Source of the DNA: Thermodesulfobacteriota bacterium
GTDB lineage: Bacteria > Desulfobacterota_D > UBA1144 > Nemesobacterales > Nemesobacteraceae
Reading direction: 5' to 3'
NCBI GenBank assembly: GCA_965263275.1
Contig: OZ253668.1
Coordinates: forward strand, 388,486-452,485
DNA: 64,000 nucleotides
Below are positions 11,901-30,020 of this stretch, piece by piece (position 1 is the stretch's first letter; each line of letters begins with the position of its first letter). A program made the position numbers and the translations under genes. The notes below the pieces were generated by a model that saw only the letters and a list, made by a program, of their open reading frames with translations, searched no databases and was not told where the DNA came from.

Positions 11901-12282
11901 CGATTATTTCCATACGGTCGCTTACGTCAACTCCCAGATCAATCTTGTTGATCATTGAGTCAAACCGGTCGTCATGGGCTCGAAGAGCGTTAAGTATCTG
12001 CCAGACCGTTTTGTATTTCTCGTTGTTGTTAAGGGCTTGTGATGGAGGTATACCCGCAGGTATGCCGATAGGGAGTATGACGTACCCCATATTCTTGCCG
12101 GGAGCCCGGCGCATTACTCGGCCCACGGACTGGACTACGTCGATTTGAGATTTGCGTGGATGCATGAAAAGGATAGCGTCCAAAGCGGGCACATCCACGC
12201 CTTCGGAAAGACATCTGGCATTGCTCAGAATACGGCATGTATTTTGGTCCACCCCCCCCCCGATTTTTCGGCGCTCAGCCAA
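8986..12282 (-). CDS. Type ISP restriction-modification enzyme, C-terminal fragment (helicase C-lobe, gamma-class N6-adenine methyltransferase, target recognition domain)
   Basis: Helicase motif VI (QSVGRVMRR), methyltransferase motif I (DPFVGTGTF) followed by motif IV (IMANPPYRG), and a long C-terminal TRD-like region. Contiguous with the upstream fragment after a +1/-2 shift at 12252-12261. Confidence 0.75.
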   Translation of the reverse strand: MAERRKIGGGVDQNTCRILSNARCLSEGVDVPALDAILFMHPRKSQIDVVQSVGRVMRRAPGKNMGYVILPIGIPAGIPPSQALNNNEKYKTVWQILNALRAHDDRFDSMINKIDLGVDVSDRMEIIAVVGNLPQRSIQTPKRNDIGSGSVSGDEQRENHAVPVTPPEQLSFELDDFNKAVLAKIVQKCGTREYWEDWAGDVAKIAQTHITRIGAILKKPDTEERKTFDKFLEEVRDDLNESISESDAIEMLSQHLITKPVFDALFEGYSFSQQNPVSIAMQGVLDALQAHNLDNETESLDKFYASVRMRASGIDNDGAKQQIIIQLYEKFFKNAFPGMTQKLGIVYTPVEIVDFIVNSVNDVLQSEFGQTLGSKGVHILDPFVGTGTFITRLLQSGLIKPQELEHKYKNELHANEIVLLAYYIAAINIEAAYHALAGGKYEPFEGICLTDTFQLYEKDDMISEILVNNSDRRIKQKKLEDIRVIMANPPYRGSQRDEGDNLKKVSYKSLDKSIRSTYVANTDATAKNSLYNSFVRAFRWGSDRLGSCGVLAYVSSSTFITARSMDGLRKCLADEFSSVHVFNLRGDARTSGEQRRKESGNVFGEGSREAIAITIAVKNPAKKKLGRIYYHDIGNYLSREEKLAHIKEFKSISGIKKANNWKAITPDEHNDWIEQRDKSFGEFIAIGNKKDKSSATIFENYSAGLGTSRDAWCYNSSKETLTRNMESMISFYNSEIDRLFSSELTRTNIDDLIDTDKSQISWTDGLKWNLIKRKKHCYFAECVYPSMYRPFFKQWTYFSRDMNKRVFQMPSIFPKPEVRNRVIVMTSVGQKSGFSVLMTDHLPDLHMVGDSQCFPLKLYEKTENLNGELYKTQRTEDDYVEKDGISDTGLEHFQKAYPEERISKEDVFYYIYGLFHSEDYRKSYANNLSKQLPRIPCVKKSKDFWAFSNAGRELADIHVDYERIEPYPVNFKEGDPYSMQPNPENFRVEKMKFGGSGKNKDRTTVAYNHKITMTGIPLETYEYMVNGKPALEWVMERQGVRTDKDSGIVNNANLYAKETVNSAAYPLDLFRRIITVSLETMKIVKSLPKLDQFRVTNK

Positions 12283-15144: not shown

Positions 15145-16338
15145 GTGTTTTTGCGGTTGCTTTATCATACCGATTTAGTATCTTATTGTCTCATGATAGA
15201 CCATAACCATTTCGCAAATGAGCTTCTTCGTATCATTCAGGGGGCTTTACGTCTCGATATTGATAAAGTTAGGAATTATACTGATTTCTTGGCCGACAAT
15301 CTTGAGAAGGAGGGGGAAGAAACCTTGGCCAAGCGTTTGCGAAAACTGCTTGAGGAATCTGACCGCCAAATTCGTCCAACCGATGCTGAATTTGCAAATT
15401 TTCCTCCGGTAGACGGCGAAAGCCGATTTCACTTGGTTGAACTTGTTGATTGCCCAAAAGAACCTCCGCTTATACTGGCAGATGAACAGTGGGAAATTGT
15501 GCATGAATTTGCCAGCGTAGCCAAGAGCTATGCGCAAATTGACAATCGGGGTTACGATGCTTCTCTCAGCCTTGTTGTGCATGGGTCTCCCGGAACGGGT
15601 AAAAACCGACTTGTCCGATACTTGGCGCGAGAACTCGGCCTCGATCTGTACATCGCGCGCCTTGACGGTTTGATTTCTTCTTACCTTGGGAGCACAGCGA
15701 AGAATATCCGCGCTATTTTTGAATTCGCAGCTAAGCGTCCATGTGTGCTTTTTCTGGATGAGTTTGATGCAATCGCGAAGTTGAGAGGGGACTCTCAGGA
15801 ACTTGGTGAGTTGAAGCGAGTCGTAAACAGCTTTATCCAGAACCTCGATACTATCGGACGACAATCAATTGTTGTGGCAGCTACCAATCACGAGGAACTT
15901 CTGGATGCGGCAATCTGGAGGCGTTTTAGCTACAGGATTGAACTAACTCTTCCAGACGAGCAGATGCGCCACCGTATGTGGGTAAATTTCAGCCGACCTA
16001 TTGAATTCACGAAACGTGAACTGGAACTGCTTGTTGATTTGTCAGATGGATTCTCCGGTTCTGACATCCACGATGTGTGTGTTCGGTTAAACAGGTACGG
16101 GTTAAGTTCCAATAAACCTCCAAGCTTCAATAGAGCCTTTTTAACTATACAGAACATGTCAATAGGGGAAGTGACGAAGAACCGGATCGCGTCGCAGACA
16201 CGTGGAGTCAAGCCCGAAGAAGCGGCGTATATACTGAGAACCAGAAATCCACGATTGTACACCCTCTCGGCATTAGCGCATATCCTGGGTGTTTCAAAGG
16301 CAAAAGTGCATCGCTGGACATTAAAAAGGAGAAGTTAG
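15145..16338 (+). CDS. Classical-clade AAA+ ATPase (IetA-like); GTG start at 15145, or ATG at 15193
   Basis: Walker A GSPGTGKNRL, Walker B VLFLDEFD, and SRH/arginine finger ATNHEELLDAAIWRRF. The stop lies 2 nt before the S8 gene start. Confidence 0.75.
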   Translation: MFLRLLYHTDLVSYCLMIDHNHFANELLRIIQGALRLDIDKVRNYTDFLADNLEKEGEETLAKRLRKLLEESDRQIRPTDAEFANFPPVDGESRFHLVELVDCPKEPPLILADEQWEIVHEFASVAKSYAQIDNRGYDASLSLVVHGSPGTGKNRLVRYLARELGLDLYIARLDGLISSYLGSTAKNIRAIFEFAAKRPCVLFLDEFDAIAKLRGDSQELGELKRVVNSFIQNLDTIGRQSIVVAATNHEELLDAAIWRRFSYRIELTLPDEQMRHRMWVNFSRPIEFTKRELELLVDLSDGFSGSDIHDVCVRLNRYGLSSNKPPSFNRAFLTIQNMSIGEVTKNRIASQTRGVKPEEAAYILRTRNPRLYTLSALAHILGVSKAKVHRWTLKRRS

Positions 16339-16340
16339 AC

Positions 16341-18656
16341 ATGAATGAGAAACTGCTGCCTATAAAACTCATTATGCCCAAGCAGGGAAGTGAACGACGC
16401 ATACCGGGTGGTCGCGGCCCTAAAAAGCCATTTCGTCCGATTGATTCCACCTACAGGAACCGATTGTCCAATCAGATTAGGGCAATCCGTAAAAGTTTGC
16501 CAAAACAAATTAAAAATGTCGGTGCTGCTCCTGTCCGGGTTTCTCTGATTCCCCAAGCTATAGCTAAGACACACCGTCCCGAAAAACTGTTTTCAGAGAG
16601 CACCTGTCCGATCATTGGCGCGGGTGGTCTTGGAGAATTGTTTATTAAGGCAACGCCTGCCGGACTTGATGAGTTGGACAACATTGTAGAGGAAGGCGAT
16701 TCTGATCAACTTGTTAAGGAGCTATCTTCTGTGCAGAGCATTGAACCCGTTACTCCGAATTCTCGTCTTGGAAACACATCCACGAGGGAGTTGCTACAAA
16801 ACAGTCCACGCGGAGAAAACGGGTTTATAGTGCGAGTTCGTCTGTTTGATTTTGGCCGAGATGGGGACCAGGAAAAGTTAATGGCTGATTTTAAGCAGAC
16901 ATGTAGAAAACGCCGTATTGCAATTACCCAAGACGGTTATTCTTTAAATAGCTTCATCTACGCGGCTGAATGCAGAAATACAAACGATGTTAAGAGTATT
17001 GCTGATGTAGTGGGAGTTCGTTCAATTCACTATATGCCGTTGATTCAAACCGTACGTCCTAATATCTCCAATACTGAGAAGTTACCTCTTCTAATCGACC
17101 GTACCGAATACTCTGAAGATGTCCCGGTGGTAGTGGTAGTTGACAGTGGGATTTCAGATGAATTGCCTGTATTGGAAAGCTGGGTGCTTGGTCGCGAATC
17201 ATCTGTAGCGCCACCGTATCAAAATACTGACCACGGAACATTTGTTGCCAGTTTGATTTGTTGGGGTCATATACTGAATCCGACTTTAAAGGGACTAAAT
17301 TCTGACCCATGTGGGGTTTTTGACCTGCAAATCATTCCGAACAGCGACCCTGAAAAAGGAGACGTGGAGTCTTTACTCGAATCTGAGTTTTTATGGTCTC
17401 TGGAGAAATCGCTCAAACAGTGGGCGAACAAATACAAAGTATGGAATTTGTCACTTAACACGGATGCAGTTTGTTTGATTGACGAATTCTCGCCACTTGC
17501 GGAAGAACTTGATAATCTGCAGGAAAAGTATCAGGTATCGTTCGTTATCAGCGCGGGAAACTATATATCTCGACCACTTCTGGATTACCCTAGAACTCAG
17601 GAACAGGAAGAAAAGGGCCGTATAACTTCGCCAGCTGATAGCGTGCTTGGCATAACTGTTGGTGCCATCTCCCATGTTGATCACAAGAAATCGGGGGTGA
17701 TTAAAAACCATCCCTCTGCGTTTTCCCGTAACGGTAGTGGGCCAAACTATGTGATTAAACCCGATCTTGTTCATTACGGAGGGGCGTGTTCCACTGACCT
17801 GTCGCACATAGCCGGGATTCATTCAATTAATGGCAGGAAATCTGTCGAAGTTTTCGGAACCAGTTTTTCGGCTCCGCTCGTATCGCGAACATTGGCACAG
17901 ATATATCATTATGTAACTCCTTCTCCTTCTCCGGTGTTGGCAAGAGCTCTGCTTACACATCACTCGCGCGATCCGCGAACGGATGACCGAGTTCCTGACG
18001 GGGAGGAAAAATGCTTCGGATTCGGCCGGCCCGCGCCGGTTCCGTACTGTCTAGAGTGCATGCCATATTCGTCAACGCTTGTATTTGAAGATGTGCTCCG
18101 CCCAGGCTACTTTCTTGAATGGAACAATTTTCCCTATCCGCCATCTCTGAAGCGCGACGGTCGTTATTATGGCGAAATATGGATGACTGTAGCTTTTGTG
18201 CCAGCGAGAGGGGCCCGCTGGGGGACCGAATATTGCGAAACTCATATTGATGCAAGTCTTGGAGTTTATTACGAACAAGTTTCACGCGAAACTGGAGAAG
18301 TCAAAACAAAATTCCGTGGACTGGTACCACCTGAGCACAAAAACCCAGGCCTTCTTTATGAGTCGTCTCAAGTTGCTCAGTTACGCAAGTGGGCGCCTGT
18401 TCGAACCTACCATGGCAAAATGGGTGATAAAGGCGAAAGAGGGTTGCAATGGAGACTAAAGCTAAGGTTGTTGACGCGTCACGGTATAGATAACGAGGAA
18501 ACTTTCAAACCCCAGCCGTTTTCTTTGATCATAACTGTTGCGGACCCACAGAAAAAGGCCCCTGTCTATGATGAAATGTCTCGAATGGTACGGAATCGTT
18601 TTCAATCTGAGAATCTTACAATCAGAGTTCCTGCGCGTATTAGAGCGCGAGGGTAA
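16341..18656 (+). CDS. Subtilisin-like S8 serine peptidase with long N- and C-terminal extensions (IetS-like)
   Basis: Catalytic triad motifs VVVVDSGI (Asp), DHGTFVASLI (His), oxyanion ISAGN and GTSFSAPLVS (Ser). AGGAG RBS 8 nt upstream; tightly coupled to the AAA gene. Confidence 0.8.
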   Translation: MNEKLLPIKLIMPKQGSERRIPGGRGPKKPFRPIDSTYRNRLSNQIRAIRKSLPKQIKNVGAAPVRVSLIPQAIAKTHRPEKLFSESTCPIIGAGGLGELFIKATPAGLDELDNIVEEGDSDQLVKELSSVQSIEPVTPNSRLGNTSTRELLQNSPRGENGFIVRVRLFDFGRDGDQEKLMADFKQTCRKRRIAITQDGYSLNSFIYAAECRNTNDVKSIADVVGVRSIHYMPLIQTVRPNISNTEKLPLLIDRTEYSEDVPVVVVVDSGISDELPVLESWVLGRESSVAPPYQNTDHGTFVASLICWGHILNPTLKGLNSDPCGVFDLQIIPNSDPEKGDVESLLESEFLWSLEKSLKQWANKYKVWNLSLNTDAVCLIDEFSPLAEELDNLQEKYQVSFVISAGNYISRPLLDYPRTQEQEEKGRITSPADSVLGITVGAISHVDHKKSGVIKNHPSAFSRNGSGPNYVIKPDLVHYGGACSTDLSHIAGIHSINGRKSVEVFGTSFSAPLVSRTLAQIYHYVTPSPSPVLARALLTHHSRDPRTDDRVPDGEEKCFGFGRPAPVPYCLECMPYSSTLVFEDVLRPGYFLEWNNFPYPPSLKRDGRYYGEIWMTVAFVPARGARWGTEYCETHIDASLGVYYEQVSRETGEVKTKFRGLVPPEHKNPGLLYESSQVAQLRKWAPVRTYHGKMGDKGERGLQWRLKLRLLTRHGIDNEETFKPQPFSLIITVADPQKKAPVYDEMSRMVRNRFQSENLTIRVPARIRARG

Positions 18657-18888
18657 GGATGAGATTACTGCGTAGCAAGATGGACTGTCTAAGAGAGCTA
18701 GGAAAAGTTAAGAAGGATATTGGCTTTGAACCTATCAAATAATCTTATGGCGATATTCTTGGACGGACCCCAGGTTGGCTCAGCGGGGGGTTTTGTAACG
18801 TTATTGATTCTTTAGCAGACGAAAAAAGTTCTAGCGAAGTTTATTTGATTGAATTTATGAATTTGGAAATTCCGCGGGAAGTAAGCAT

Positions 18889-19500
18889 ATGGAAATCAGC
18901 CTTAATTTTACTAACTATAAACCAGGATTTTTAATTTGTACGATTGGAATACTCTGGCTTCTTTGTTATTGGGCATTGTCCTTTCTTTGGCAGCATGGGG
19001 TTTTTCAAGGAATTGCTCCAACTCTGCTTGTCGCATCTTTCTTGGGATTTTATGACAAGCTGTTATGGAAATTCCCTGTGTTTAGTCTTCTTGTAAAAGT
19101 CCCTGATTTAAACGGAGAGTATGAAGGTACAGTTGAATATCACTGGGACGATAAAAACCAAAACAAAACCTGTAATCTCCAAATTCGACAGACGGCTTCT
19201 TTCATTAAAGTAAAGTGTTCTTTTCAAAAAGAAGGGGAGAACGAGACTTCATCTGAAAGCAAGAAAGCTTTTTTTGATACTGATGAGGTAGGCGGCTGCT
19301 CCCTCTATTTTTACTATCAGAATAGAGGTTCTTGCAAGGATGGCGATACGTTGGACCAGCATGATGGAATGACAATTCTTCAGGTGATCGAGGAGGGTAA
19401 AGATATAAAACTAGAAGGTTCTTATTTTACGAATCGCAACCCACAGACAAAGGGGCGAATTAAAGTTTCAAAAATCATTTTACCGGAGGTAAACAAATGA
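18889..19500 (+). CDS. CBASS effector candidate: two N-terminal TM helices plus a ~110-aa C-terminal domain (Cap15-like)
   Basis: Two hydrophobic helices (LICTIGILWLLCYWALSFLW; IAPTLLVASFLGFYDKLLW) followed by a soluble domain. The stop overlaps the cyclase start (ATGA). Confidence 0.5.
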   Translation: MEISLNFTNYKPGFLICTIGILWLLCYWALSFLWQHGVFQGIAPTLLVASFLGFYDKLLWKFPVFSLLVKVPDLNGEYEGTVEYHWDDKNQNKTCNLQIRQTASFIKVKCSFQKEGENETSSESKKAFFDTDEVGGCSLYFYYQNRGSCKDGDTLDQHDGMTILQVIEEGKDIKLEGSYFTNRNPQTKGRIKVSKIILPEVNK

Positions 19501-20450
19501 ATACCCACAAATTATTTGAGAAGTTCAATGGGGTTATAAGATTGACTGACTCAAAGAGAGAAAAGTTAAAAACCAGCCGTAAAGCGTTAAGAGATAAGAT
19601 AAACAAATTTTTCGAAGAAAAGCGTTTGAAAAAACCTGAATTCCATCCTCAAGGCTCTTTTCCGTTACAAACCAATCTTAACCCTATCAGAGCGGAGGAA
19701 GACGGGGTTATCAAGGAAAAGTATGATATGGATGATGGAGTTTATTTTATCAGCCCTGAATCAGATCGGAAGACCCCTGAGACTTACCATTACCGCATAA
19801 AAGATGCGGTTGAAGGGCATGCGTCGGACGTAATTGATAAAAACACTTGCGTAAGAGTTGTTTTTGCTGACGGACACCACATCGATTTGCCCGCTTACTG
19901 GCTGGAAGATGGAGACAGTGTTCCGCAGTTGGCCCACAAGTCGGAAGGTTTTATAGATAGTGACCCAGTAGAATTCATGGACTGGGTTAGGGAAAAAATA
20001 TCTGAAACGAACTCTACTGGGCAATTGAGGAGAATTATTCGTTACTTAAAAGCGTGGAAAGACTATCGGGAAAACAAGAATTCGAGTCTCAAACTTCCTT
20101 CCGGTTTTATTCTTACCATTTTGGCTTGTAATCATTACAAGCCAAGTGACCGAGACGACTTGGCTTTATGCGATACCGTCGAGAGTATCAGGAATGAATT
20201 GGATTGGAACTTTGTGTGCTACCGTCCCACAACTCCTGAAGGTGAAGAGTTGTTAGGAAAATACGACTCGGAGAAAGTTCTGCGGGAGTTAGAGAAATTT
20301 GTTGAAAATGCCCAGAAAGCGATAGATTCTGATTGCGGGGAAGAATCTTCTAAATATTGGAGAAAAGTGTTCGGAGATCGTTTCCCTCTGGGAGATAAAA
20401 GTAAAAAATCTTTTAAAACATCTGTAGAAAAACCATGGACATCATTTTAA
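19497..20450 (+). CDS. cGAS/DncV-like nucleotidyltransferase (CD-NTase, CBASS cyclase)
   Basis: Pol-beta NTase motifs QGSFPLQT (G-S) and DMDDGVYF ([DE]hD), a third acidic residue in ADGHHIDLP, and the YLKAWKD motif. 317 aa. Confidence 0.7.
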   Translation: MNTHKLFEKFNGVIRLTDSKREKLKTSRKALRDKINKFFEEKRLKKPEFHPQGSFPLQTNLNPIRAEEDGVIKEKYDMDDGVYFISPESDRKTPETYHYRIKDAVEGHASDVIDKNTCVRVVFADGHHIDLPAYWLEDGDSVPQLAHKSEGFIDSDPVEFMDWVREKISETNSTGQLRRIIRYLKAWKDYRENKNSSLKLPSGFILTILACNHYKPSDRDDLALCDTVESIRNELDWNFVCYRPTTPEGEELLGKYDSEKVLRELEKFVENAQKAIDSDCGEESSKYWRKVFGDRFPLGDKSKKSFKTSVEKPWTSF

Positions 20451-21097
20451 CGAATGAAGATATTGAAGAAGTAAAGGAGGTATTCCCACAATTAAATTGC
20501 GAAGTGCAGAATGGCCGCATCTGGGGAACTTTGGACTTTTGCTGTTGGTATGACAACAGTAGCGAAGAATTAGAGCATAATTCACAGCATCGGGAAGCTA
20601 TATATGATTCTTACGAAATAGAAATTAAATTTGGCAGAAAAGACGAATTTGATTTTCCGAGAGTTTATGAACCATCTGAGAAGATATTAAAGTTTTCAAC
20701 TGATTCAGAACTAAAGCTGGAAGACTTCCACGTCAACGAAAAAGATTGTAACAGTTGCTGCTTAGGTATCTTTCCTGATTACCGATGGCAAGGCGCGACA
20801 GATTTTATATTAACAAAAGTCGTTCCATTTTTTTACTGGCAATCCCATAGAAGAATAAAAGGAGAAGAACCTTGGGAAGGATATGCCCATGGGTACAAAG
20901 GTATTGAGAATGCTTTAGCTTCAGTATCTCGTAGAAATAAAGGTCGTAACCGTAATATTTTATGTCTTTGTAATAGTGGTAAGAAATACAAAAAATGTTG
21001 CTATCAGAAAGACTCAATATTGCGATCGAGCTTGTTGAAAGCAAAGATGGATAGGAGAAAACTTAACACTAATCGCTCCGGCAAAGATTCTCAGTGA
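20435..21097 (+). CDS. Cys-rich protein with a C-terminal SEC-C zinc motif, co-operonic with the CD-NTase; function unknown
   Basis: CLCNSGKKYKKCC matches the SecA C-terminal SEC-C motif (CxCxSGxKYKxCC). Additional Cys clusters are FCCWYD and CNSCC. The start overlaps the cyclase end by 16 nt. Confidence 0.5.
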   Translation: MDIILTNEDIEEVKEVFPQLNCEVQNGRIWGTLDFCCWYDNSSEELEHNSQHREAIYDSYEIEIKFGRKDEFDFPRVYEPSEKILKFSTDSELKLEDFHVNEKDCNSCCLGIFPDYRWQGATDFILTKVVPFFYWQSHRRIKGEEPWEGYAHGYKGIENALASVSRRNKGRNRNILCLCNSGKKYKKCCYQKDSILRSSLLKAKMDRRKLNTNRSGKDSQ

Positions 21098-21213
21098 TAG
21101 CCAACTCCTCTAAACACCAGTTCAGCCAGTTTTTAAGTGGCGAGGAGAAACGAAAGGATCAATGTTGTATTTCATAAAACGGCTACTCGGAAACAAGACC
21201 TCTGGAAACTGCC

Positions 21214-21615
21214 ATGGCTGCACAGATCAGGATTAACAAGCGAAACGTCTACCGCTATCAAGTACGACGGCGATCTGCCCCCGGAGTGGTATACGCGGAC
21301 CGCAAGACCGCCATCGTGAAGGTGCTAGGAAAGCGATTCCTCGAAGAGTATGTACTCCACTGTAAGTCGCACACGGCCTATGAATATCGTCCGTCCATGG
21401 AAGTCTTCATTGAACCCAAAATCGGCGCGAGAAAGGTGACCGAGATTCTGCGGAGCGATATCGCTGAATTGCATCATGGCATGCGAAAGACACCCTATCA
21501 GGCCAACCGGACGCTTGGCATTCTTTCCAAGATGCTCAACCTCGCGGAGATGTGGGGCCTACGGTCGGACGGCTTGAACTCCATAACGCATGGGAACCAA
21601 GAAAGGTACAGATAA
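21214..21615 (+). pseudogene. Tyrosine recombinase (phage integrase) N-terminal arm/SAM-like domain only; catalytic domain absent
   Basis: ARKVTEILRSDIAELHHGMRKTPYQANRTLGILSKMLNLAEMWGLR matches integrase N-terminal domains. The ORF ends after 133 aa with no RHRY catalytic region. Confidence 0.6.
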
Positions 21616-22619
21616 TGACCGACTTATTCATCCTCGGTGCGGGTTTCTCCAAGGCCATCAATTATAGAATGCCAACAATGGACGAGCTAAGTTCTGCCGT
21701 CCTAATAAACTTGGAAAATGTCGGCTTGCGCGTACCGGATGCATTACACGATCTTGGCAACAATATCGAACTTTGGATGACTTACTTATCTCAAGCTCAA
21801 CCTTGGCTCAAAGAGTCTGATAACCACTTCAACAAGGCTTTTGCTGGCCAACTACGCAAACAAATAGAGGAGATTATCCATGACCGAACAACGATTGCGT
21901 CTCAGTCTAACCCACCAGTTTGGTTGAACCGTTTGATTAGGTCGTGGCATGAACAACGTGCCACAGTAATCACGCTGAATTACGACACTCTAATTGAAAG
22001 GGCGAGCCGGGAATTGCAGATTACGGATAAGATAAAGCGCATCATGGCTGACCAGATGTATCCCCCATATTTTGCCAATATAGCGTCAAGATCAGGAGTC
22101 GGCCTTTTTGGCGAAGGAAAAGTAGATACCTTTTTATACTTAAAGCTTCATGGTTCCATAAATTGGTACTATTCTGGCAGAGATAATTTCTACGGTGAAA
22201 CAATTTTTTACGCAGATGTACCTCCTCTCGGTTCTGATTATTCGGATCAAGAAAAGGCATTAAGTGCACTATCTAGAGATAAAGAGACGTTAATCATCCC
22301 TCCGGTAAATGAGAAGACCATATACTTCAGCAATGAAACTGTAAAAGGACTTTGGCACGACGCTAGTGTTGCTCTTTCCAACGCGACACGAGTGTTTGTG
22401 ATAGGGTACTCATTACCGATTTCAGATCTTGGTATGCAGTTATTTTTAATCAACAATCAACCTGTTCCGCAAACCCCCGTCTACGTGATAGATACGTGTG
22501 CAGAAGTTGCAAAACGCTACGAGTCCTTGTTACCAAAATTGCAAATAAAGACAGATTTTTCACACGATCAGAATCCTGTCGAAAAATTTAGCGAGCATTA
22601 TCCAAATTTAGGGAATTAG
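21615..22619 (+). CDS. Standalone SIR2-family protein (SIR2_2-like), candidate NAD+-depleting defence effector
   Basis: Rossmann LFILGAGFS, ITLNYDTLIE and the catalytic-His motif YLKLHGSINWY. Its ATG overlaps the TAA of the integrase fragment (TAATG). Confidence 0.7.
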   Translation: MTDLFILGAGFSKAINYRMPTMDELSSAVLINLENVGLRVPDALHDLGNNIELWMTYLSQAQPWLKESDNHFNKAFAGQLRKQIEEIIHDRTTIASQSNPPVWLNRLIRSWHEQRATVITLNYDTLIERASRELQITDKIKRIMADQMYPPYFANIASRSGVGLFGEGKVDTFLYLKLHGSINWYYSGRDNFYGETIFYADVPPLGSDYSDQEKALSALSRDKETLIIPPVNEKTIYFSNETVKGLWHDASVALSNATRVFVIGYSLPISDLGMQLFLINNQPVPQTPVYVIDTCAEVAKRYESLLPKLQIKTDFSHDQNPVEKFSEHYPNLGN

Positions 22620-23056
22620 ATAGGAAAGTTGAGAAATTTATAGATACGGGTCGGGAGGCACAAAAGTGTGAAGAACAATTTTTCTAGACCTAGTCATGAT
22701 AACTCGACCTCCTTAACCAGAAATGTTTTTACTGTCTTCAGCATAACCGGTGTTTTTCAGGATAATTGTCGCATATTATAACATGACGCGCCCTGGTTTT
22801 TACCTCCTCTGAAGTTCTCTCCAATCTCATAATCATAGTCATTCATCAAGCGGCTTCGTCCTTTCTCCGATCCGGATTAAGCCACACTTCCTCTACAGGC
22901 GACCAGTTGCGATAACGTTCTAAATTATTCAATTGTAAGGTCCCCGCAGACTATTTAGAATAGAACTGCTGTATTGGTTATTTCCTGTGACTATAACAGA
23001 TAATGGAAATCTTCACCACGATGAAGCACACATAAGAATTTCTGGCTAGCTATTAT

Positions 23057-23089
23057 GTATATAGTTCCCTAGCGGGGGGAACTATATAC
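23057..23089. other. Perfect 13-bp stem / 7-nt loop hairpin in a 640-bp ORF-free spacer
   Basis: gtatatagttccc-tagcggg-gggaactatatac; the arms are exact reverse complements. Confidence 0.6.
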
Positions 23090-23260
23090 TTTGTTAGCCA
23101 TATGGACGTGTTTATTTGTTTCTTCCGTCAGGCGTTGAAAAGTTGGAAGCCACGTGCCTTCGTTTCGGAGAACGAGGGTGATTCATCGTTCTTACCCTCC
23201 AGTGCTTTTTGTGGTATTATACGCCCTGCAACAATCGATACTTAATCAAAACTTTCTTAA

Positions 23261-23665
23261 ATGACTTTTACCCAATCTATCTCAACTTGCTTCTCAAAAT
23301 ATGTTGACTTCTCAGGTAGAGCGCCGAGAAGCGAATTTTGGTGGTGGCAACTTTTTTTCTTTTTAACACTATTTCTAACAAATTTTACTGACATCTTAAT
23401 ATTTGGAATACCATCATATGACTATATTGTTTACTATTGGTGGTACACACCGTCAGCCAGCCCGCTCACAATTATGTGGATATTAATAACATTTTTACCA
23501 ACTATAGCCGTTAATATAAGAAGATTACATGACGCTGGATATAGTGGTTGGTATTACCTCGTATCCTTTATACCGATAATTGGTATTTTCTGGTTGATTC
23601 TTTTGTGGTTATTAAAATCTGAAGAAAAAGACAACAAATATGGAACTTATCAAAACGCCCCTTGA
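23261..23665 (+). CDS. DUF805 family inner-membrane protein
   Basis: SGRAPRSEFWWW...NIRRLHDAGYSGWYYL...IPIIGIFWLILL and a C-terminal NKYG match DUF805 signatures. Confidence 0.65.
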   Translation: MTFTQSISTCFSKYVDFSGRAPRSEFWWWQLFFFLTLFLTNFTDILIFGIPSYDYIVYYWWYTPSASPLTIMWILITFLPTIAVNIRRLHDAGYSGWYYLVSFIPIIGIFWLILLWLLKSEEKDNKYGTYQNAP

Positions 23666-23766: not shown

Positions 23767-24924
23767 ATGAGCGTTCGGCTGGTCGATGCGGAATGGGGCC
23801 GGGAGCTTAAGGATGCTATTTGCACGCACCCCACTGAGGTATGCATCGTTTGCCCATTCATCAAGAAGCGTGCTCTTGAGCGTCTCCTGTCGCACCGGCC
23901 TTGTGGTGTTCGGGTGATTACCCGATTCAATCTGAAGGATTTCGCTGAAGGTGTCAGCGATGTGGGAGCCTTGCGAATGCTCCTCGATGCCGGGGCCAGT
24001 ATCCGTGGTATCCGGCACCTCCATGCCAAGTTGTATCTCTTCGGGGAAAGCCGAGCGATCATTACTTCGGCCAACCTAACGGAGGCTGCCCTAACCCGAA
24101 ACTGGGAGTTTGGCGTGGTCGCTGATGATATAGCCGTCGTTGCGACCTGCCGGGATTATTTCGAAAAGCTTTGGCGACGCGGAAACTCGGATATATCCAG
24201 CGATCTTCTCGATAGCTGGGAAGAAACAGTTACCCGTCATCATCTTGCTGGCGGAAGGCCCAGCCATGCGAGAGGGCTCGATGATTTTGGCGCGGATGCG
24301 GGGCCTGCAGCCACATTGCCCTATACCCTTCCCGCTGTCGTAGCGGATACAGATCAAGCCTTCGTCAAGTTTCTCGGCACGAATAATAATCGGGTGCCGG
24401 TTTCTTTCGCCACTATCAAGGAGATCAAGAATTCGGGCTGCCATTGGACCCTCGCCTATTCAAAGCGCCCTAGAATAGTCAAAGACGGTGCGGTCATGTT
24501 TATCGCGCGGCTCACGGATGAGCCCGACATTCGAATTTTCGGTCGCGCTATCGGTATGAAGCATCATCCGAGCCGGGACGACGCGTCACCCGAGGACATT
24601 GAGCGTCGCTCGTGGAAAGAGAAGTGGTCGAGGTACATCCGCGTGCATCACGCTGAGTTCGTTGCTGGAACTATGGCAAACGGCATCTCGCTGAACAATT
24701 TGATGGATACGCTTGAAAGCAATTCATTTAAGCGGACTCAGGATAATGCGGTTGCTGGTACCGTCAACACGGATCCTCGGCGTGCATATATGCGGCAAGC
24801 ACATGTCGAACTTTCTTCGCAAGGCACTTCCTGGCTTGGCGAGTGCCTTCAGGCGGCGTTTGACGAACACGGCAAAGTCCCGCAGGGCATGCTCGAGGAA
24901 CTCGACTGGCCTACACTGTCATGA
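23767..24924 (+). CDS. PLD-superfamily (HKD) nuclease domain fused to an uncharacterised ~250-aa C-terminal domain
   Basis: Single HKD-like motif HAKLYLFGESRAIITSANLT (HxK...TSxN). High-GC (~58%) gene, in contrast to the low-GC neighbours. Confidence 0.55.
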   Translation: MSVRLVDAEWGRELKDAICTHPTEVCIVCPFIKKRALERLLSHRPCGVRVITRFNLKDFAEGVSDVGALRMLLDAGASIRGIRHLHAKLYLFGESRAIITSANLTEAALTRNWEFGVVADDIAVVATCRDYFEKLWRRGNSDISSDLLDSWEETVTRHHLAGGRPSHARGLDDFGADAGPAATLPYTLPAVVADTDQAFVKFLGTNNNRVPVSFATIKEIKNSGCHWTLAYSKRPRIVKDGAVMFIARLTDEPDIRIFGRAIGMKHHPSRDDASPEDIERRSWKEKWSRYIRVHHAEFVAGTMANGISLNNLMDTLESNSFKRTQDNAVAGTVNTDPRRAYMRQAHVELSSQGTSWLGECLQAAFDEHGKVPQGMLEELDWPTLS

Positions 24925-25508: not shown

Positions 25509-27284
25509 ATGTCTTTACATGTAGATATAATCCCCAACCGCAAGAGCAGACCCACCATACTCCTGCGCGAGGCGCGGCGCGAAGGAAAAAGAATCAGAAA
25601 GAAAACGCTGTGCAACCTCACCCACGTGCCCTCGATAATCGTTGACGGCATACGAGCCATGCTAAAAGGCGGGGTGGTGTATAAAGACCTCAAGGAGGCT
25701 TTTTCCATAAAGCGCACGTTGCCCCACGGACATGTCGTCGCCGCGCTTGGTGTCTCCAGGGATCTGGGGCTGGATCGCATTCTGCACAGAAAAAACAGCC
25801 GCGCGCGGGATCTGGCTCTGGGGGCAGTTGTCTTGGGGGTGCTGAAGCCCAATTCAAAGCTGGCGGCTTCCCGGGGCCTGTCCCCCGAGAGCGCGAGCAC
25901 GAGTCTGGGAGCTGTTATGGGTCTGGGGCCGGTTACGGGCAACGAGATGCTCTCCATGCTTGACTGGCTTGTGGAGCGCCAGAGGTGGATTGAGCGAAGC
26001 CTGGCCAACCGTCATCTCAAGGGAGGCACTCTTGTGCTCTACGACGTGACCTCAAGCTACATGGAGGGACAGAGCTGCCCGCTGGCTTTCTTCGGTCACA
26101 ACAGAGACAAAAAGAAGGGGAAGAAGCAGATCGTGTACGGGCTGCTTTGCTCCGCCGACGGCTGTCCGGTGGCCGTGGAGGTGTTTTGCGGCAACACCGG
26201 GGACCCGGCGACGGTGGGAGCTCAGGTTGAGAAGATTCAGCGGCGCTTTGGGGTTGAGAACCTGGCGTTGGTCGGAGACCGCGGGATGATCACCACCGCG
26301 CGCATCAGGGAGGATATCGAATCTTGCGGTCTTCAGTGGATATCGGCACTCAAGTCAACCGACATCCGTAAGCTGCTGAAAAAGCCTGAGGACGGCGAAG
26401 CGCCGCTTAGCCCCGAAGCTTTGGTTCCCGACGGGGTCGGTGAGATAGTCAGTCCCGAGTTTCCGGGCGAGCGTCTGATAGTGTGTCTTAACCCTCGTCT
26501 GAGGGAGCAGAGGGCGCGCAAGCGCGAAGAGCTTCTGGTTTCCACGGAGCGGATTCTTGAGGACATCAAAAAAGCGGTCCGCCGCAAAGGCTCCTCGCTG
26601 CGAGGCAAAGACAATATCAATCGGCGCGTGGGACGCGAAGCGAACCGCAGGAAGGTGGAGAAGCACTTTGAGATCACCGTTACGGACGATGATATCTCAT
26701 GGTCTCGTGACCGGGAGAGAATAGAGGCGGAGGCCCGTCTTGACGGCATCTACATCATACGAACCAGTCTTGACGGTTCGGCTCTTGGAGCGGCGGGGGT
26801 GGTATCGGCGTACAAGAGCCTCTCTGTGGTGGAGCGGGCGTTTCGTTCGATCAAGACCACTTCTTTGCGGATACGTCCCTTCTACGTGTACAGCGAACCT
26901 CACGTGCGCGGACATGTTCTGCTCTGCATGCTCGCTTATTACGTTCAGTGGCACCTTCGCAGGCTGCTGGCGCCGCTATTGTTTGAGGATTGTGACCGCG
27001 AGGGGGCGGAGAGGAAGCGGAGGACGCCGGTGGAGAGAGCCATGGTATCTGACAGCGCCAAGGCGAAAAGCGACACGAAAAAGACTCCTGAGGGGTTCTG
27101 CGTGCATAGCTTCGAGACGCTTATGGAGGATCTGGCCACCTTCTGCCTCAATGAAGTGGCGCTGCCTGGGGATTCTGAGCATGGTTTCGTCGTTATGCCC
27201 GAACCGACGCCCCTGCAGAAAAAAGCGTTTGAATTGCTAGGCATAGACCTCGGCAAATTTGTTCCCAGTAAACTGACAGGTTGA
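25509..27284 (+). CDS. IS1634-family (IS4 superfamily) DDE transposase
   Basis: 591 aa. LVLYDVTSSYMEG, LVGDRGM and YKSLSVVERAFRSIKTTSLRIRPFYV are characteristic of IS1634-type transposases. Confidence 0.7.
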   Translation: MSLHVDIIPNRKSRPTILLREARREGKRIRKKTLCNLTHVPSIIVDGIRAMLKGGVVYKDLKEAFSIKRTLPHGHVVAALGVSRDLGLDRILHRKNSRARDLALGAVVLGVLKPNSKLAASRGLSPESASTSLGAVMGLGPVTGNEMLSMLDWLVERQRWIERSLANRHLKGGTLVLYDVTSSYMEGQSCPLAFFGHNRDKKKGKKQIVYGLLCSADGCPVAVEVFCGNTGDPATVGAQVEKIQRRFGVENLALVGDRGMITTARIREDIESCGLQWISALKSTDIRKLLKKPEDGEAPLSPEALVPDGVGEIVSPEFPGERLIVCLNPRLREQRARKREELLVSTERILEDIKKAVRRKGSSLRGKDNINRRVGREANRRKVEKHFEITVTDDDISWSRDRERIEAEARLDGIYIIRTSLDGSALGAAGVVSAYKSLSVVERAFRSIKTTSLRIRPFYVYSEPHVRGHVLLCMLAYYVQWHLRRLLAPLLFEDCDREGAERKRRTPVERAMVSDSAKAKSDTKKTPEGFCVHSFETLMEDLATFCLNEVALPGDSEHGFVVMPEPTPLQKKAFELLGIDLGKFVPSKLTG

Positions 27285-27460: not shown

Positions 27461-28288
27461 TCAGCCGGATGTGTCGCTTTCGGTGGCGAACTTCGCGGGT
27501 CTTCCCTGTTTTTTCTTCTGTTCCATGGCTTGACGGCGTCTGTAGCTCTCCACGTTCATCTCAAGTATCACGCAGTGATGCACAAGGCGATCCACCGCTG
27601 CCACCGCGGTGTTTTCGTCAGGAAACACCTTTGTCCATTCGGTAAACGGCTGATTGGCGGTAATGAGCACGGAACGTTGCTCATAACGGACCGATATCAG
27701 TTCGAACAGCACGCTTGTTTCGGCGTGATCTTTGCGCACGTAGGCCAGATCGTCAAGAATCAGCAGGTCGTAGCGGTCAAGCCTGTTGAGCATATTCTCA
27801 AGGGACAGTTCCCTTTGAGCCGTCTGGAGCTTCTGAACAAGATCCGTCGTACGGGTGAACAGCACCCGTTTCTCCTTCTCCACCAGAGACAAGCCGATTG
27901 CCGAAGCCAGATGACTCTTGCCCGCCCCCGGAGGGCCGAAGATTATCACATTGTGTCCGCCTCTTAGCCACGAATCGTTTGAAGCCAGGGCCATGACCGT
28001 GGGTTTGGATATAGTGGGAACCGCGTCAAAGTCGAAGTTCTCAAGGGTTTTTCCTGGAAGAAGACGGGCTTCGCCCAAGTGGCGGCGTATCCTGCGCCGT
28101 TGCCGCTCGGCAAGTTCAAGATCCGCGAGAGTTGCGAGCAGCCGGGCCGCGGGCCACCCCTCGGTATCCGCCCGTTCGGCGAACCGCTCCCACATCTGCC
28201 TGATCGCGGGCAGCCGAAGTTCGCGGAACATGAGGTCAAGGTCGGCTTTTCCGATCTCCACCACCTTTTCATTGGGTTTCGTATTCAT
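27461..28288 (-). CDS. istB: IS21 helper ATPase IstB
   Basis: Walker A IIFGPPGAGKSHLA and Walker B LLILDDLAY; DnaC-like AAA+ typical of IstB. Confidence 0.85.
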   Translation of the reverse strand: MNTKPNEKVVEIGKADLDLMFRELRLPAIRQMWERFAERADTEGWPAARLLATLADLELAERQRRRIRRHLGEARLLPGKTLENFDFDAVPTISKPTVMALASNDSWLRGGHNVIIFGPPGAGKSHLASAIGLSLVEKEKRVLFTRTTDLVQKLQTAQRELSLENMLNRLDRYDLLILDDLAYVRKDHAETSVLFELISVRYEQRSVLITANQPFTEWTKVFPDENTAVAAVDRLVHHCVILEMNVESYRRRQAMEQKKKQGRPAKFATESDTSG

Positions 28289-29787
28289 CTCTGTCCTCCC
28301 GTTTCAAATAAAGAGCCGTAATTGTCGAGGCGGCCTCTATGGACGTCGACTCCGGGCATAGGCCCCGTTTTCACCGTGAACCGTTCTTTGAGCTCATCGA
28401 TGTCGGGAAGTTCTCCCACAGAAACGCATTTCCCTATCGCCGAAGCCAGCTGGGCTTCGCAACTGTAATCATGGGCCAGAGCCAGAAGCTTTACCGCGAC
28501 TCCGCATGCCTCCCGCCCCGAGAGAAGTTCAACAGCAAGCTCAAAACAACGCTTGCACTCCTCCCGGGGAAACAGCTCATCACGGTAAACCAGATTCATA
28601 AACGCCCCCGGCTTGCGCCGAAGCGAATGAATCACGTGATGATAATTGACCGCGTAAGCCGTTTTCTCCGAAGATCCTCTTCTCCTGCGCTCAAGGGTAA
28701 GCAGATGACGGTCTCCCAGGTACAACTCTACTCTCTCATCGTAAAGACGCGCCGCGAGACGATGCCCTATGAGACGAGAGGGGACCGTGTAGAACACTCC
28801 CTTGAGCATGAAACCGCCGGAAGAAGTAACCCTTACGCTTTCACGCCGATAAAACTCCCCGTCCTGGGGCGGAAGAGACCCAAGCACCTTGCGCTCGGTC
28901 TCTATGCGCTCCACGCGCCGGGCGTTTAGACCGCTTAGCAGTTCCGCTATGAAGTCGCGGTAAGAATCAAGATCTGCAAAGTCCCGGGAACCCCGAAGCG
29001 CCAAAGCGTCCCCTATCTCCCTTTTCAGGTGACCGTGAGAACTCTCTATCGCCCCGTTTTCGTGGGCGACCCCGCGGTTGTTGCGCGTCGGCGCCATCCC
29101 GTAATGGGCGCAAAACTCCCTGTAGCTTGCGGTCATGTCCTCGACCTCGTCCTTGCTGAGATTGCGGAGAGCCGCCGAGAGACTGTCGGTGCGGCACTCC
29201 CGAGGAACGCCGCCCAGCATCCCCAAAGCTTCGCTGAGACCCCGGGAGAAAGCGGCGAAGCTCTCCCCTCCAAGCACTGCCGTGGCGTGAACGAACCCCG
29301 ACCAGGGAAGGCGGAAGTGATAGAGCTTGTGATCAAATCTCTTTCGGGCAATCGTGATCTCAAGGGAGTTCATGGTGGTGAAGTCGGAGATCCCCACGCG
29401 CCCCGGCTCCTTTTTCTGACGGAATATGACGTCCTTGTCAGCGCCATGTTCCGCTCTCCACGCCCTTATACGCCTCTCAAGAGTCCTGCGAACTCCCGGG
29501 TCAAGCTGGGGATTTTCTCTCATTATTTCGCGGAACACCGCGACGGAACGTATATCCGGACAGTTCTTGAGAATGGGAACTACCCGGGAATCGAAAATGC
29601 CATCCAGAGGATCGGGACGTCGGCTCCCCCGGGGCTTGTTTTTAGTTCCTGATTGCGGGTCCTTGGAGATTCGGAAACCGGTAGAGCGGCTGAAACCCGC
29701 TTTGGCAGCCGCGGTTTCCGTAGAACAAGTTTGTTTGAGCTTCATGAATTTCCTCCTTTGTTCATCAGTGATATGTTGCCCTGCCAT
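28285..29787 (-). CDS. istA: IS21 transposase IstA
   Basis: An HTH N-terminus is followed by a DDE core. Start chosen at MAGQHITDEQ (ATG 29787), preceded by GGAGG. Confidence 0.75.
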   Translation of the reverse strand: MAGQHITDEQRRKFMKLKQTCSTETAAAKAGFSRSTGFRISKDPQSGTKNKPRGSRRPDPLDGIFDSRVVPILKNCPDIRSVAVFREIMRENPQLDPGVRRTLERRIRAWRAEHGADKDVIFRQKKEPGRVGISDFTTMNSLEITIARKRFDHKLYHFRLPWSGFVHATAVLGGESFAAFSRGLSEALGMLGGVPRECRTDSLSAALRNLSKDEVEDMTASYREFCAHYGMAPTRNNRGVAHENGAIESSHGHLKREIGDALALRGSRDFADLDSYRDFIAELLSGLNARRVERIETERKVLGSLPPQDGEFYRRESVRVTSSGGFMLKGVFYTVPSRLIGHRLAARLYDERVELYLGDRHLLTLERRRRGSSEKTAYAVNYHHVIHSLRRKPGAFMNLVYRDELFPREECKRCFELAVELLSGREACGVAVKLLALAHDYSCEAQLASAIGKCVSVGELPDIDELKERFTVKTGPMPGVDVHRGRLDNYGSLFETGGQR

Positions 29788-30020
29788 CGTGAACCTCCCG
29801 CTCGATAGATTGAGCGGGGTTCTTACCCGGCCGGTCGTGAACACCGAAAGAAATTCAAAAAAATCTGGGGAGATGCTGTCTGAAACGGAAGGAGGGCGTA
29901 GCCCGACTGGAGTTTCAGACAGCATCTCCCCAGAGTCTCATCTTGTTTGTCGCAAAAGTTCAAAGTTGATTGACGCAGGATATTGTTAAATGAAGTTCCG
30001 TTTAAGTTAGTAGAGAAGCG

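What the first reader, a model, noticed from the sequence alone, without database searches (positions are those of the whole stretch)
21214..22619. Integrase N-terminal DNA-binding fragment translationally coupled (TAATG) to a standalone SIR2
A 133-aa ORF encodes only the arm/SAM-like N-terminal domain of a tyrosine integrase. Its stop overlaps by 1 nt the start of a 335-aa SIR2_2 protein (GAGFS, NYD, HGS). This is either a decayed island integrase or a co-opted DNA-binding partner for a SIR2 NADase. A standalone short SIR2 without a HerA, SLOG or STAND partner is unusual.
Basis: partly seen in the sequence, partly recalled or inferred. Interest (0 to 1): 0.6.

Follow-up and report, generated by a model that had tools for sequence, protein, structure and literature searches.

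The report
Dead integrase stub beside standalone SIR2
The small ORF is most likely the decaying leftover of an island integrase gene that happens to abut a self-sufficient SIR2 defence-type gene, and their overlapping stop/start is a by-product of the junction rather than a sign of partnership.

Summary
The sequence is as described. ORF 21214-21615 (133 aa) stops at a TAA that shares one base with the ATG of a SIR2 ORF at 21615-22619, which is 334 aa, not 335.

The small ORF is a stub of a P4-type tyrosine integrase. It keeps 13 N-terminal codons and the core-binding (SAM-like) domain. The arm-binding domain is deleted internally and the catalytic domain is gone.

The pairing is confined to one very young clade. 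SIR2 genes 88-93% identical in DNA sit in four other contexts without the stub, and homology starts only 12-15 nt before the ATG. None of 48 more distant SIR2 loci has such a stub. The nearest flanking ORFs, taken from 50 SIR2 loci, share no recurrent partner.

- In two contigs the stub is frameshifted while SIR2 is intact.
- In another contig its N-terminus is replaced by a piece of an ATPase gene.
- It also occurs without SIR2.
- It diverges three times faster than SIR2, and a synonymous excess does not survive correction for mutation bias.

The overlap is built in. SIR2 starts ATGA, so any ORF entering in that frame stops there.

Verdict: decayed integrase remnant plus an autonomous, horizontally mobile SIR2. 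One oddity remains: surviving stub haplotypes have net in-frame indels.

The parts
21143..21213 (+). Retained 5' untranslated/upstream region of the former integrase gene
   Evidence: Homology to L004, a locus with the same stub but no CBASS and no SIR2, starts at 21143, which is 71 nt before the ATG.
21214..21615 (+). 133-aa ORF, the integrase stub: codons 1-13 of the integrase, an internal deletion of the arm-binding domain, then the core-binding/SAM-like domain
   Evidence: tblastn with full-length integrases (P0201, P0202) covers only their residues ~50/95-193, and the match ends at window position 21591.
21253..21297 (+). Stretch read in a different frame from the ancestral one. It is bounded by a +1 C insertion (21252/21253) and a +2 CG duplication (21294-21297).
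   Evidence: The window and L001 read RYQVRRRSAPGVVYA. L002, L062, L064 and L004 read AIKYDGDLPPEWYT.
21592..21614 (+). SIR2's own leader with a Shine-Dalgarno-like AAAGG. It supplies the last ~8 codons and the stop of the stub ORF.
   Evidence: Fragment-free SIR2 loci (L059, L060, L061, L005, L065) align with the window from 21600-21603 onward. They read ACAGACAATGACC where the window reads ACAGATAATGACC.
21615..22619 (+). Standalone SIR2_2-type protein, 334 aa, with an intact NAD-binding and catalytic motif set
22620..22749 (+). 3' flank that travels with SIR2. Homology to other contexts ends at 22655, 22680-22690 or 22749.
23057..23089 (+). Terminator-like hairpin (14 pairs followed by a T-rich tail), a possible end of the transcript
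   Evidence: This is a consensus scan only.
18889..21097 (+). Neighbouring CBASS operon (Cap15 2TM effector, CD-NTase, E2/SEC-C). It is context, not part of the pair.
   Evidence: SIR2 occurs without it in most loci.

Best explanation
The 133-aa ORF is a non-functional remnant of a P4-type tyrosine integrase gene. It sits in a decaying, IS-ridden defence island.

The remnant keeps the integrase's 5' region, its start codon and its core-binding domain. An internal deletion removed the arm-binding domain. The catalytic half is lost from the point where a compact SIR2 unit now begins. That unit consists of a leader of about 15-25 nt with its own ribosome-binding site, the ORF, and about 40-130 nt of 3' flank.

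The remnant's frame runs on into the SIR2 leader and ends at the first stop. That stop overlaps the SIR2 ATG because SIR2 begins ATGA.

SIR2 does not need the remnant. It belongs to a large family of ~335-aa single-domain SIR2_2 proteins that move between genomes and defence islands without a fixed partner. By analogy with other defence sirtuins, it most likely depletes NAD+ on infection.

What is shown: the anatomy, the distribution, the decay of the remnant, and purifying selection on SIR2. What is inferred: the order of events, the NADase and defence role of SIR2, and how it is activated.
For: 1. Origin of the fragment. All close homologues are pieces of one integrase family. Full-length relatives (P0201, 410 aa; P0202, 392 aa) carry Arm-DNA-bind_3 + SAM_3 + Phage_integrase, and the fragment matches their residues ~95-193. 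No catalytic-domain remnant lies near SIR2.

2. The pairing is not conserved.
- L059, L060 and L065 (downstream of sucC), L061 and L005 carry SIR2 at 88-93% nt identity, with homology starting at 21600-21603.
- None of the 54 SIR2 loci from other genomes has an integrase core-binding piece within 5 kb.
- The 92 nearest flanking ORFs (one per side), taken from 50 SIR2 loci, share no recurrent Pfam or PADLOC family. The maximum is 5 of 92, and none is HerA or an integrase.

3. Decay of the fragment.
- A +1 frameshift occurs in L062 (41x coverage) and L064 (7x coverage) with SIR2 intact.
- In L003 the N-terminus is replaced by the C-terminal piece of an AAA_21 gene.
- L004 holds half the domain plus an unrelated tail and has no SIR2.

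4. Evolutionary rates, window versus L003.
- The fragment differs at 39 of 294 nt and SIR2 at 47 of 1002 nt (Fisher p = 1.6e-6).
- Fragment divergence at codon positions 1+2 (10.2%) is at least as high as SIR2 divergence at position 3 (7.5%).
- Substitutions by codon position are 13:7:19, not significantly different from uniform (p = 0.06), and they track GC1/2/3 of 0.54/0.38/0.68.
- With the observed transition bias, the synonymous excess is not significant for the fragment (p = 0.03-0.19) but is for SIR2 (p = 0.001-0.004).

5. Indels. There are five indel events (+1, +2, +4, -3 and a second +1) in ~400 nt of fragment among near-identical copies, and none in 1005 nt of SIR2.

6. The overlap is explained by sequence. 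The leader reads CAATGA in fragment-free loci, TAATGA in the window and TGATGA in L003.
Against: - The ORF is open in 7 of 9 fragment-bearing loci or variants.
- Every intact indel-bearing haplotype is net in-frame. These are +1/+2/-3 in the window and L001, +4/+2 in L063, and +3 in L003. Treating these as 5 frame-preserving outcomes out of 6, against a chance of 1/3 each, gives p of about 0.02. This is my own rough count on very few events.
- Uncorrected NG86 omega for the core-binding part is 0.34.
- The fragment boundaries coincide with a whole folding domain.
- No relative shows a full-length integrase at this position, so the ancestral state is inferred rather than seen.
- No expression data are available.
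Confidence: 0.78

Rival explanations
1. The remnant is kept as a translated leader, not as a protein. SIR2 landed in the integrase gene and is expressed from the integrase's or the CBASS promoter. Translation through the ~400-nt stub protects the transcript from polarity and delivers ribosomes to the SIR2 start. Selection would then preserve an open frame but not the amino-acid sequence.
For: - Net in-frame indels occur in all intact haplotypes.
- The same +2 CG insertion is offset by a +1 C in the window and L001 and by a +4 TGGT in L063.
- A 15-codon stretch is read in two different frames in different strains with no loss of the ORF.
- The native integrase 5' region from 21143 is retained.
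- No sigma-70-like promoter was found between E2 and SIR2.
- In L062 and L064 an 89-aa ORF still ends on the SIR2 ATG.
Against: - SIR2 carries its own Shine-Dalgarno-like AAAGG and is found behind unrelated upstream sequences.
- The event count is very small.
- The L004-type stub has no SIR2 behind it, yet it is also an open ORF in 14 full-length variants, including an in-frame 6-nt indel. Open frames at this low divergence therefore need no selection.
- The promoter scan uses an E. coli-type consensus on a Thermodesulfobacteriota-like genome.
Confidence: 0.13
2. The core-binding domain has been domesticated as a DNA-binding or regulatory partner of SIR2, forming a two-gene system translated in fixed stoichiometry.
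For: - The fragment corresponds to a complete core-binding domain.
- The ORF is retained in most copies.
- NG86 omega is 0.34.
- The pair moved as one block into a different context in L003.
Against: - The pairing is absent from the nearest SIR2 orthologues and from all distant ones.
- Frameshifted copies sit next to an intact SIR2.
- The fragment evolves three times faster than SIR2, and the selection signal vanishes after bias correction.
- The C-terminal 8 residues come from the SIR2 leader.
Confidence: 0.05
3. SIR2 is a second effector or accessory of the adjacent CBASS operon.
For: CBASS, the stub and SIR2 are collinear on one strand in the window and in L001, L002, L062, L063 and L064.
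Against: - The operon already has a Cap15 effector.
- SIR2 is a single compact domain (pTM 0.90) with no recognisable nucleotide-sensor domain.
- Most SIR2 loci have no CBASS.
- CBASS is 8-19% diverged where the stub and SIR2 are 0-5% diverged in the same contigs, so the two have different histories.
Confidence: 0.03

Closest known systems
P4-type (DUF4102/Arm-DNA-bind_3) tyrosine integrases of genomic islands, and their pseudogene remnants
   Same: The fragment matches the core-binding/SAM-like domain and the first residues of this family. It is 73-76% identical to the closest pieces and ~50% identical to intact 390-410-aa members. It lies in a mosaic island with IS elements.
   Different: It lacks the arm-binding domain and the whole catalytic domain. 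There is no tRNA gene in the 64-kb window or in the loci checked. It cannot recombine DNA.
SIR2 of the SIR2-HerA (Nezha) anti-phage system
   Same: This is the best structural match (8sub and 8wld, Foldseek probability 1.0, TM ~0.55) and the best profile match in the PDB. The motif set GAGFS, N..D and H is the same.
   Different: Identity is only ~15%. There is no HerA in the window or among the 92 flanking ORFs scanned from 50 SIR2 loci. The protein is shorter, at 334 aa against ~380-415.
Single-protein or fused defence sirtuins (DSR1/DSR2, ThsA, Avs5, SPARSA SIR2-APAZ)
   Same: They share the SIR2 catalytic fold and a location in defence islands. NAD+ depletion is the presumed output, which is an inference from those systems (papers listed).
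   Different: All of them carry or pair with a sensor: a large C-terminal domain, SLOG, a STAND NTPase or pAgo. This protein is a bare catalytic-size domain with variable neighbours.
Overlapping stop/start (ATGA/TAATG) gene pairs in operons
   Same: The stop and start share one base.
   Different: Here the overlap is not conserved with the gene pair. It follows from SIR2's ATGA start, and the stub frame would stop at the next codon (TGA) even without the TAA.

Membership tests
Tyrosine recombinase / P4-type integrase | Catalytic domain (Pfam Phage_integrase, with the R-K-H-R-H-Y active-site residues) | tested here: not met
   There is no Pfam hit. tblastn with full-length relatives ends at their residue ~193, window position 21591, and finds nothing downstream of SIR2.
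Tyrosine recombinase / P4-type integrase | N-terminal arm-binding domain (Arm-DNA-bind_3) | tested here: not met
   The alignment shows about 75 residues deleted between MAAQIRINKR.. and ..DRKTA.
Tyrosine recombinase / P4-type integrase | Core-binding / SAM-like domain | tested here: met
   Matches to integrase pieces reach E 1e-40. Pfam SAM_3 and Phage_int_M hits fall below the gathering score.
SIR2_2 (PF13289) defence-type sirtuin | Rossmann NAD-binding motif, catalytic Asn/Asp and His, and the SIR2 fold | tested here: met
   GAGFS 8-12, N122, D124 and H179 are invariant in 38 homologues. Pfam scores 23.9 bits against a cutoff of 24.5. PADLOC SIR2 matches at 3.7e-12. The fold match has probability 1.0.
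SIR2_2 (PF13289) defence-type sirtuin | NADase activity and phage protection | not testable with these tools
   This needs enzymology and plaque assays.
SIR2-HerA system | Adjacent HerA ATPase gene | tested here: not met
   The window neighbours are CBASS E2, the stub, DUF805 and a DrmC-like PLD. No HerA appears among the 92 flanking ORFs scanned.
Thoeris type I (ThsA) | SLOG domain fused to SIR2, plus a TIR ThsB gene | tested here: not met
   The model is a single compact domain of 334 aa. No SLOG or TIR hit was found for SIR2 or the flanking ORFs scanned.
DSR1/DSR2, Avs5 | Large fused sensor or STAND NTPase domain | tested here: not met
   The protein is 334 aa. A separate Mrr-nSTAND gene follows SIR2 in L003, L059 and L060, but not in the window, L001, L002, L005, L061 or L065.
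CBASS effector | Cyclic-nucleotide sensor domain and obligate linkage to a CD-NTase | tested here: not met
   No sensor domain was detected. SIR2 occurs mostly without CBASS.
Conserved two-gene (fragment + SIR2) module | Co-occurrence across relatives, with both genes under purifying selection | tested here: not met
   The pairing is limited to one young clade. The fragment is broken in L062 and L064 and absent in L005, L059-L061 and L065. The selection signal on the fragment is not significant after bias correction.

The most novel reading that the evidence does not exclude
The integrase stub is not neutral junk. It would be maintained as an open, translated first cistron, or even as a domesticated core-binding-domain protein, on which SIR2 expression or control depends in this lineage. 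The hints are that every intact haplotype is net in-frame and that one +2 insertion was offset in two different ways.
Probability: 0.15. Interest if true: 0.45.

Novelty: new member of a known kind. Interest (0 to 1): 0.2.

Why it matters
For the finding as stated, it matters little. A pseudogene stub next to a defence gene is the normal debris of defence islands, and this case shows how an overlapping stop/start can mislead.

Two points are mildly useful.

- A large, uncharacterised family of bare ~335-aa SIR2 proteins moves as a minimal unit between unrelated bacteria, many of them taxa I recognise as sponge-associated. It has no fixed sensor partner. That poses the question of how a catalytic-size sirtuin is kept off and switched on.
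- The locus is a tidy natural experiment, because the same SIR2 occurs with and without the stub. This makes it easy to test whether upstream translation matters.

Tried and rejected
- Near-identity DNA searches of 21100-22700 against E. coli genomes and plasmids found no match.
- A protein search of SIR2 against phages found none. Against plasmids it found two distant hits. One was inspected, a solitary 'SIR2 family protein' on a Curtobacterium plasmid.
- tRNA scans of the window and nine loci found none, so no attachment-site tRNA could be tied to the integrase.
- An Rfam gathering-threshold scan of the whole window found no family. Folding of the 500 nt after SIR2 gave z = -1.8, which is unremarkable apart from one hairpin.
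- Two junction-specific DNA patterns scanned against JGI metagenome contigs gave 0 hits, so no extra haplotypes were obtained.
- NCBIfam had no model for either protein.
- Literature phrase searches for a standalone SIR2 defence gene and for sponge symbionts plus SIR2 found nothing relevant.
- I considered an integron-cassette origin for the compact SIR2 unit and rejected it. The right-hand homology ends are ragged (22655, 22680-22690, 22749), and by eye I saw no attC-like site in the 3' flank. No formal attC search was run.
- I first read NG86 omega = 0.34 as purifying selection on the stub. I dropped that reading after allowing for transition bias and high GC3.

Full report
**Observation**

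The window holds ORF 21214..21615 (ATG start, 133 aa, TAA stop at 21613-21615). The ATG at 21615-21617 opens an ORF that runs to 22619. The SIR2 protein is 334 aa; the count of 335 includes the stop codon.

Pfam gives only sub-threshold hits. For the fragment, Phage_int_M scores 20.3 bits against a gathering score of 27, and Phage_int_SAM_3 scores 17.3 against 22.6. For SIR2, SIR2_2 scores 23.9 against 24.5. Both identities hold up on other evidence:
- The fragment matches N-terminal pieces of one integrase family at E down to 1e-40.
- The SIR2 matches a PADLOC SIR2 model at 3.7e-12.
- GAGFS (residues 8-12), N122, D124 and H179 are invariant across 38 homologues that go down to 48% identity.
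- The AlphaFold model (pLDDT 90, pTM 0.90) matches the SIR2 subunit of SIR2-HerA complexes with Foldseek probability 1.0 and TM about 0.55.

**Context**

The pair lies inside a defence island on the + strand:

| Coordinates | Feature |
|---|---|
| 15145-18656 | IetA/IetS |
| 18889-19500 | CBASS Cap15 2TM effector |
| 19497-20450 | CBASS CD-NTase |
| 20435-21097 | CBASS E2/SEC-C |
| 21214-21615 | Integrase fragment |
| 21615-22619 | SIR2 |
| 23261-23665 | DUF805 |
| 23767-24924 | DrmC-like PLD protein |
| 25509-27284 | IS transposase |

Further out are more IS pieces and a Type ISP restriction enzyme split into two ORFs. GC content is patchy: about 37-40% in CBASS, 52% in the fragment, 40-45% in SIR2 and 55% in the PLD gene. 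The closest genome found is a Thermodesulfobacteriota MAG (OZ242294.1), whose SIR2 is 86% identical.

**What the fragment is**

All 36 word-indexed homologues are short pieces (78-227 aa) of a single integrase family, and many are frameshifted. An exhaustive HMMER search finds intact relatives at about 50% identity. P0201 (410 aa) and P0202 (392 aa) carry Arm-DNA-bind_3, Phage_int_SAM_3/Phage_int_M and Phage_integrase domains. The fragment aligns to their residues ~95-193.

The alignment shows three parts:
- The fragment begins with the integrase's own N-terminus. MAAQIRINKR corresponds to MAAQIKITKR.
- It then skips about 75 residues of the arm-binding domain.
- It resumes at ..DRKTA.. and runs through the whole core-binding domain.

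tblastn with intact integrases ends at window position 21591 and finds no catalytic-domain remnant near SIR2. The 71 nt upstream of the ATG also belong to the old integrase gene, because they are shared with L004. The fragment is therefore a stub of the core-binding domain. It is not an 'arm + SAM' unit.

**Is the pairing conserved?**

The pairing appears only in one very young clade:
- Collinear CBASS-stub-SIR2 copies occur in L001, L002, L062, L063 and L064.
- L003 has the stub from ..YTDRKTA.. onward plus SIR2, in a different setting. There the stub's N-terminus is replaced, in frame, by the last ~45 residues of an AAA_21 ATPase gene.
- SIR2 genes that are 88-93% identical in DNA lie directly downstream of sucC in L059, L060 and L065, and in two other settings in L061 and L005. 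None of these has a stub.

In the stub-free loci, homology to the window starts at 21600-21603, only 12-15 nt before the ATG. It ends raggedly at 22655-22690.

Across the wider family the pairing is absent too. None of the 54 SIR2 loci fetched from other genomes has an integrase core-binding piece within 5 kb. I scanned the 92 nearest flanking ORFs (one per side) from 50 SIR2 loci, and no family recurs in more than 5 of them. None is HerA, SLOG or an integrase. What does recur, weakly, is other defence hardware: GajA/OLD-type ATPases, Mrr-STAND, type IIG and ISP restriction enzymes, and MADS components.

SIR2 is under similar purifying selection with and without the stub (NG86 omega 0.14-0.35).

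**The overlap**

The fragment's last ~8 codons (GNQERYR) and its stop lie in the SIR2 leader, not in integrase-derived sequence. The leader reads differently in each setting:

| Locus type | Sequence at the SIR2 start |
|---|---|
| Stub-free loci | ACAGACAATGACC |
| Window | ACAGATAATGACC |
| L003 | ACAGGTGATGACC |

SIR2 begins ATGA, so the codon after the TAA in the stub's frame is TGA. Any ORF entering in that frame, a one-in-three chance, must stop on or next to the ATG. SIR2 also carries its own AAAGG about 9 nt upstream. The 'translational coupling' is therefore a by-product of the junction.

**Decay of the stub**

- L062 (41x coverage) and L064 (7x coverage) share a +1 C insertion (CACGGCC becomes CACGGCCC). 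It splits the stub into 56-aa and 89-aa ORFs, while SIR2 stays intact.
- L004 and 14 variants carry the same arm-deleted stub, cut halfway through the core-binding domain and fused to an unrelated tail, with no SIR2 or CBASS nearby.
- Among near-identical copies, the ~400-nt stub carries five indel events. The 1005-nt SIR2 carries none.

Rates, comparing the window with L003:

| Measure | Stub | SIR2 |
|---|---|---|
| Differences | 39 of 294 nt (13.3%) | 47 of 1002 nt (4.7%) |
| Codon positions 1+2 | 10.2% | – |
| Codon position 3 | 19.4% | 7.5% |

- The overall difference in rate is significant (Fisher p = 1.6e-6).
- Divergence at the stub's first and second codon positions is at least as high as at SIR2's third positions.
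- Stub substitutions by codon position are 13:7:19, not significantly different from uniform (p = 0.06). They follow GC1/2/3 of 0.54/0.38/0.68.
- NG86 gives omega 0.34. Once the observed transition bias (31 transitions to 8 transversions) and a GC-to-AT bias are allowed for, the synonymous excess is not significant for the stub (p = 0.03-0.19). It remains significant for SIR2 (p = 0.001-0.004).

**What does not fit neatly**

The stub ORF is still open in most copies, and every intact haplotype that carries indels is net in-frame:
- The window and L001 have +1 C, +2 CG and -3.
- L063 has +4 TGGT and the same +2 CG.
- L003 has +3.

As a result, a 15-codon stretch (21253-21297) is read in a different frame in the window than in L002. 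Counting roughly 5 frame-preserving outcomes out of 6, against a chance of 1/3 each, gives p of about 0.02. This is my own count and rests on very few events.

This pattern is what one would expect if being translated mattered but the amino-acid sequence did not. That could be the case if SIR2 is expressed from the integrase or CBASS promoter and an untranslated 400-nt gap would cause polarity.

Two things argue for caution. The L004-type stub has nothing behind it and is also an open ORF in all 14 full-length variants, with an in-frame 6-nt polymorphism. And SIR2 is evidently expressed behind quite different upstream sequences. I keep the translated-leader idea as the main rival, at about 0.13.

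**Mechanism**

The best-supported reading (confidence 0.78) has four elements:
1. An island integrase lost its arm-binding domain by an internal deletion.
2. It lost its catalytic half where a compact SIR2 unit now begins.
3. The stub is drifting.
4. The SIR2 is an autonomous, single-domain member of a large family (more than 1100 homologues) that moves horizontally between defence islands of unrelated bacteria.

By analogy with DSR2, ThsA, SIR2-HerA and Avs5 (papers listed), it most likely hydrolyses NAD+ to abort infection. That, and how a sensor-less sirtuin is triggered, are inferences and were not shown here.

**Comparison and novelty**

The stub fails the defining tests for an integrase, since it has no catalytic and no arm domain. 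The SIR2 passes the sequence and fold tests for the SIR2_2 class. It fails the membership tests for SIR2-HerA, Thoeris, DSR, Avs5 and CBASS effectors. The 'fragment + SIR2 module' fails the test of conserved co-occurrence.

The finding as framed is ordinary island debris next to an uncharacterised but not rare standalone SIR2. I found no paper that describes such a bare SIR2 as a tested defence system, so the SIR2 is a new member of a known kind. Interest is 0.2.

Noticed in passing
window 18860-20960, compared with 20961-22752: The CBASS operon is 8-19% diverged, in a mosaic pattern, between the window and L001, L002, L062, L063 and L064. The adjacent E2 3' end, stub and SIR2 are only 0-5% diverged in the same contigs. 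CBASS alleles seem to be shuffled or diversifying next to a young shared block.
   Followed up: partly
window 8986-13874, - strand: A Type ISP restriction-modification enzyme is split into two overlapping ORFs. ORF 12225-13874 carries Mrr_cat_2 + ResIII. ORF 8986-12282 carries Helicase_C, ISP_coupler, N6_Mtase and Type_ISP_C. This is probably a frameshifted pseudogene.
   Followed up: no
window 8146-8685, 25509-27284, 27461-29925, 30021-31568: The island holds several IS elements or pieces: a truncated Mutator-family transposase (179 aa), a DDE_Tnp_1 transposase, an IS21-like IstB plus a Mu-transposase-like ORF, and a DUF772/DDE_Tnp_1 transposase. L001, which is otherwise 96% identical, lacks the 25509-27284 IS.
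   Followed up: no
proteins P0123-P0156 and P0183-P0200 (homologues of window 21214-21612): Nearly all relatives of this integrase above ~60% identity are short or frameshifted ORFs, spread over many contigs and genomes. Intact copies appear only at about 50% identity. The family looks widely pseudogenised in these metagenomes.
   Followed up: partly
L005-L058 (SIR2 loci): The SIR2 family occurs at 45-69% identity in MAGs of Poribacteria, Binatia, Dehalococcoidia/SAR202, Arenicellales, Rhodospirillaceae and Thermodesulfobacteriota. From my own knowledge, this taxon set is typical of sponge microbiomes, which suggests horizontal spread within one habitat.
   Followed up: no
L003 7618-10425; L059 5721-8528; L060 6154-8958: In three close relatives SIR2 is followed on the same strand by a 934-935-aa Mrr_cat-nSTAND1 protein. 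In L065 it is followed by Gabija (GajA/GajB), and in L005 by a Type ISP-like methyltransferase protein. The window has none of these behind SIR2.
   Followed up: partly
window 21253-21297; L063 3650-3690: The same +2 CG duplication is offset by a +1 C in the window and L001 and by a +4 TGGT duplication in L063, so all intact stub haplotypes stay in frame. This could be chance or selection for an open frame.
   Followed up: partly
window 22620-23260: A 640-nt stretch after SIR2 has no convincing ORF. It ends in a 14-bp-stem terminator-like hairpin at 23057-23089. Homology to L002, L062 and L063 breaks at 22749-22752.
   Followed up: no
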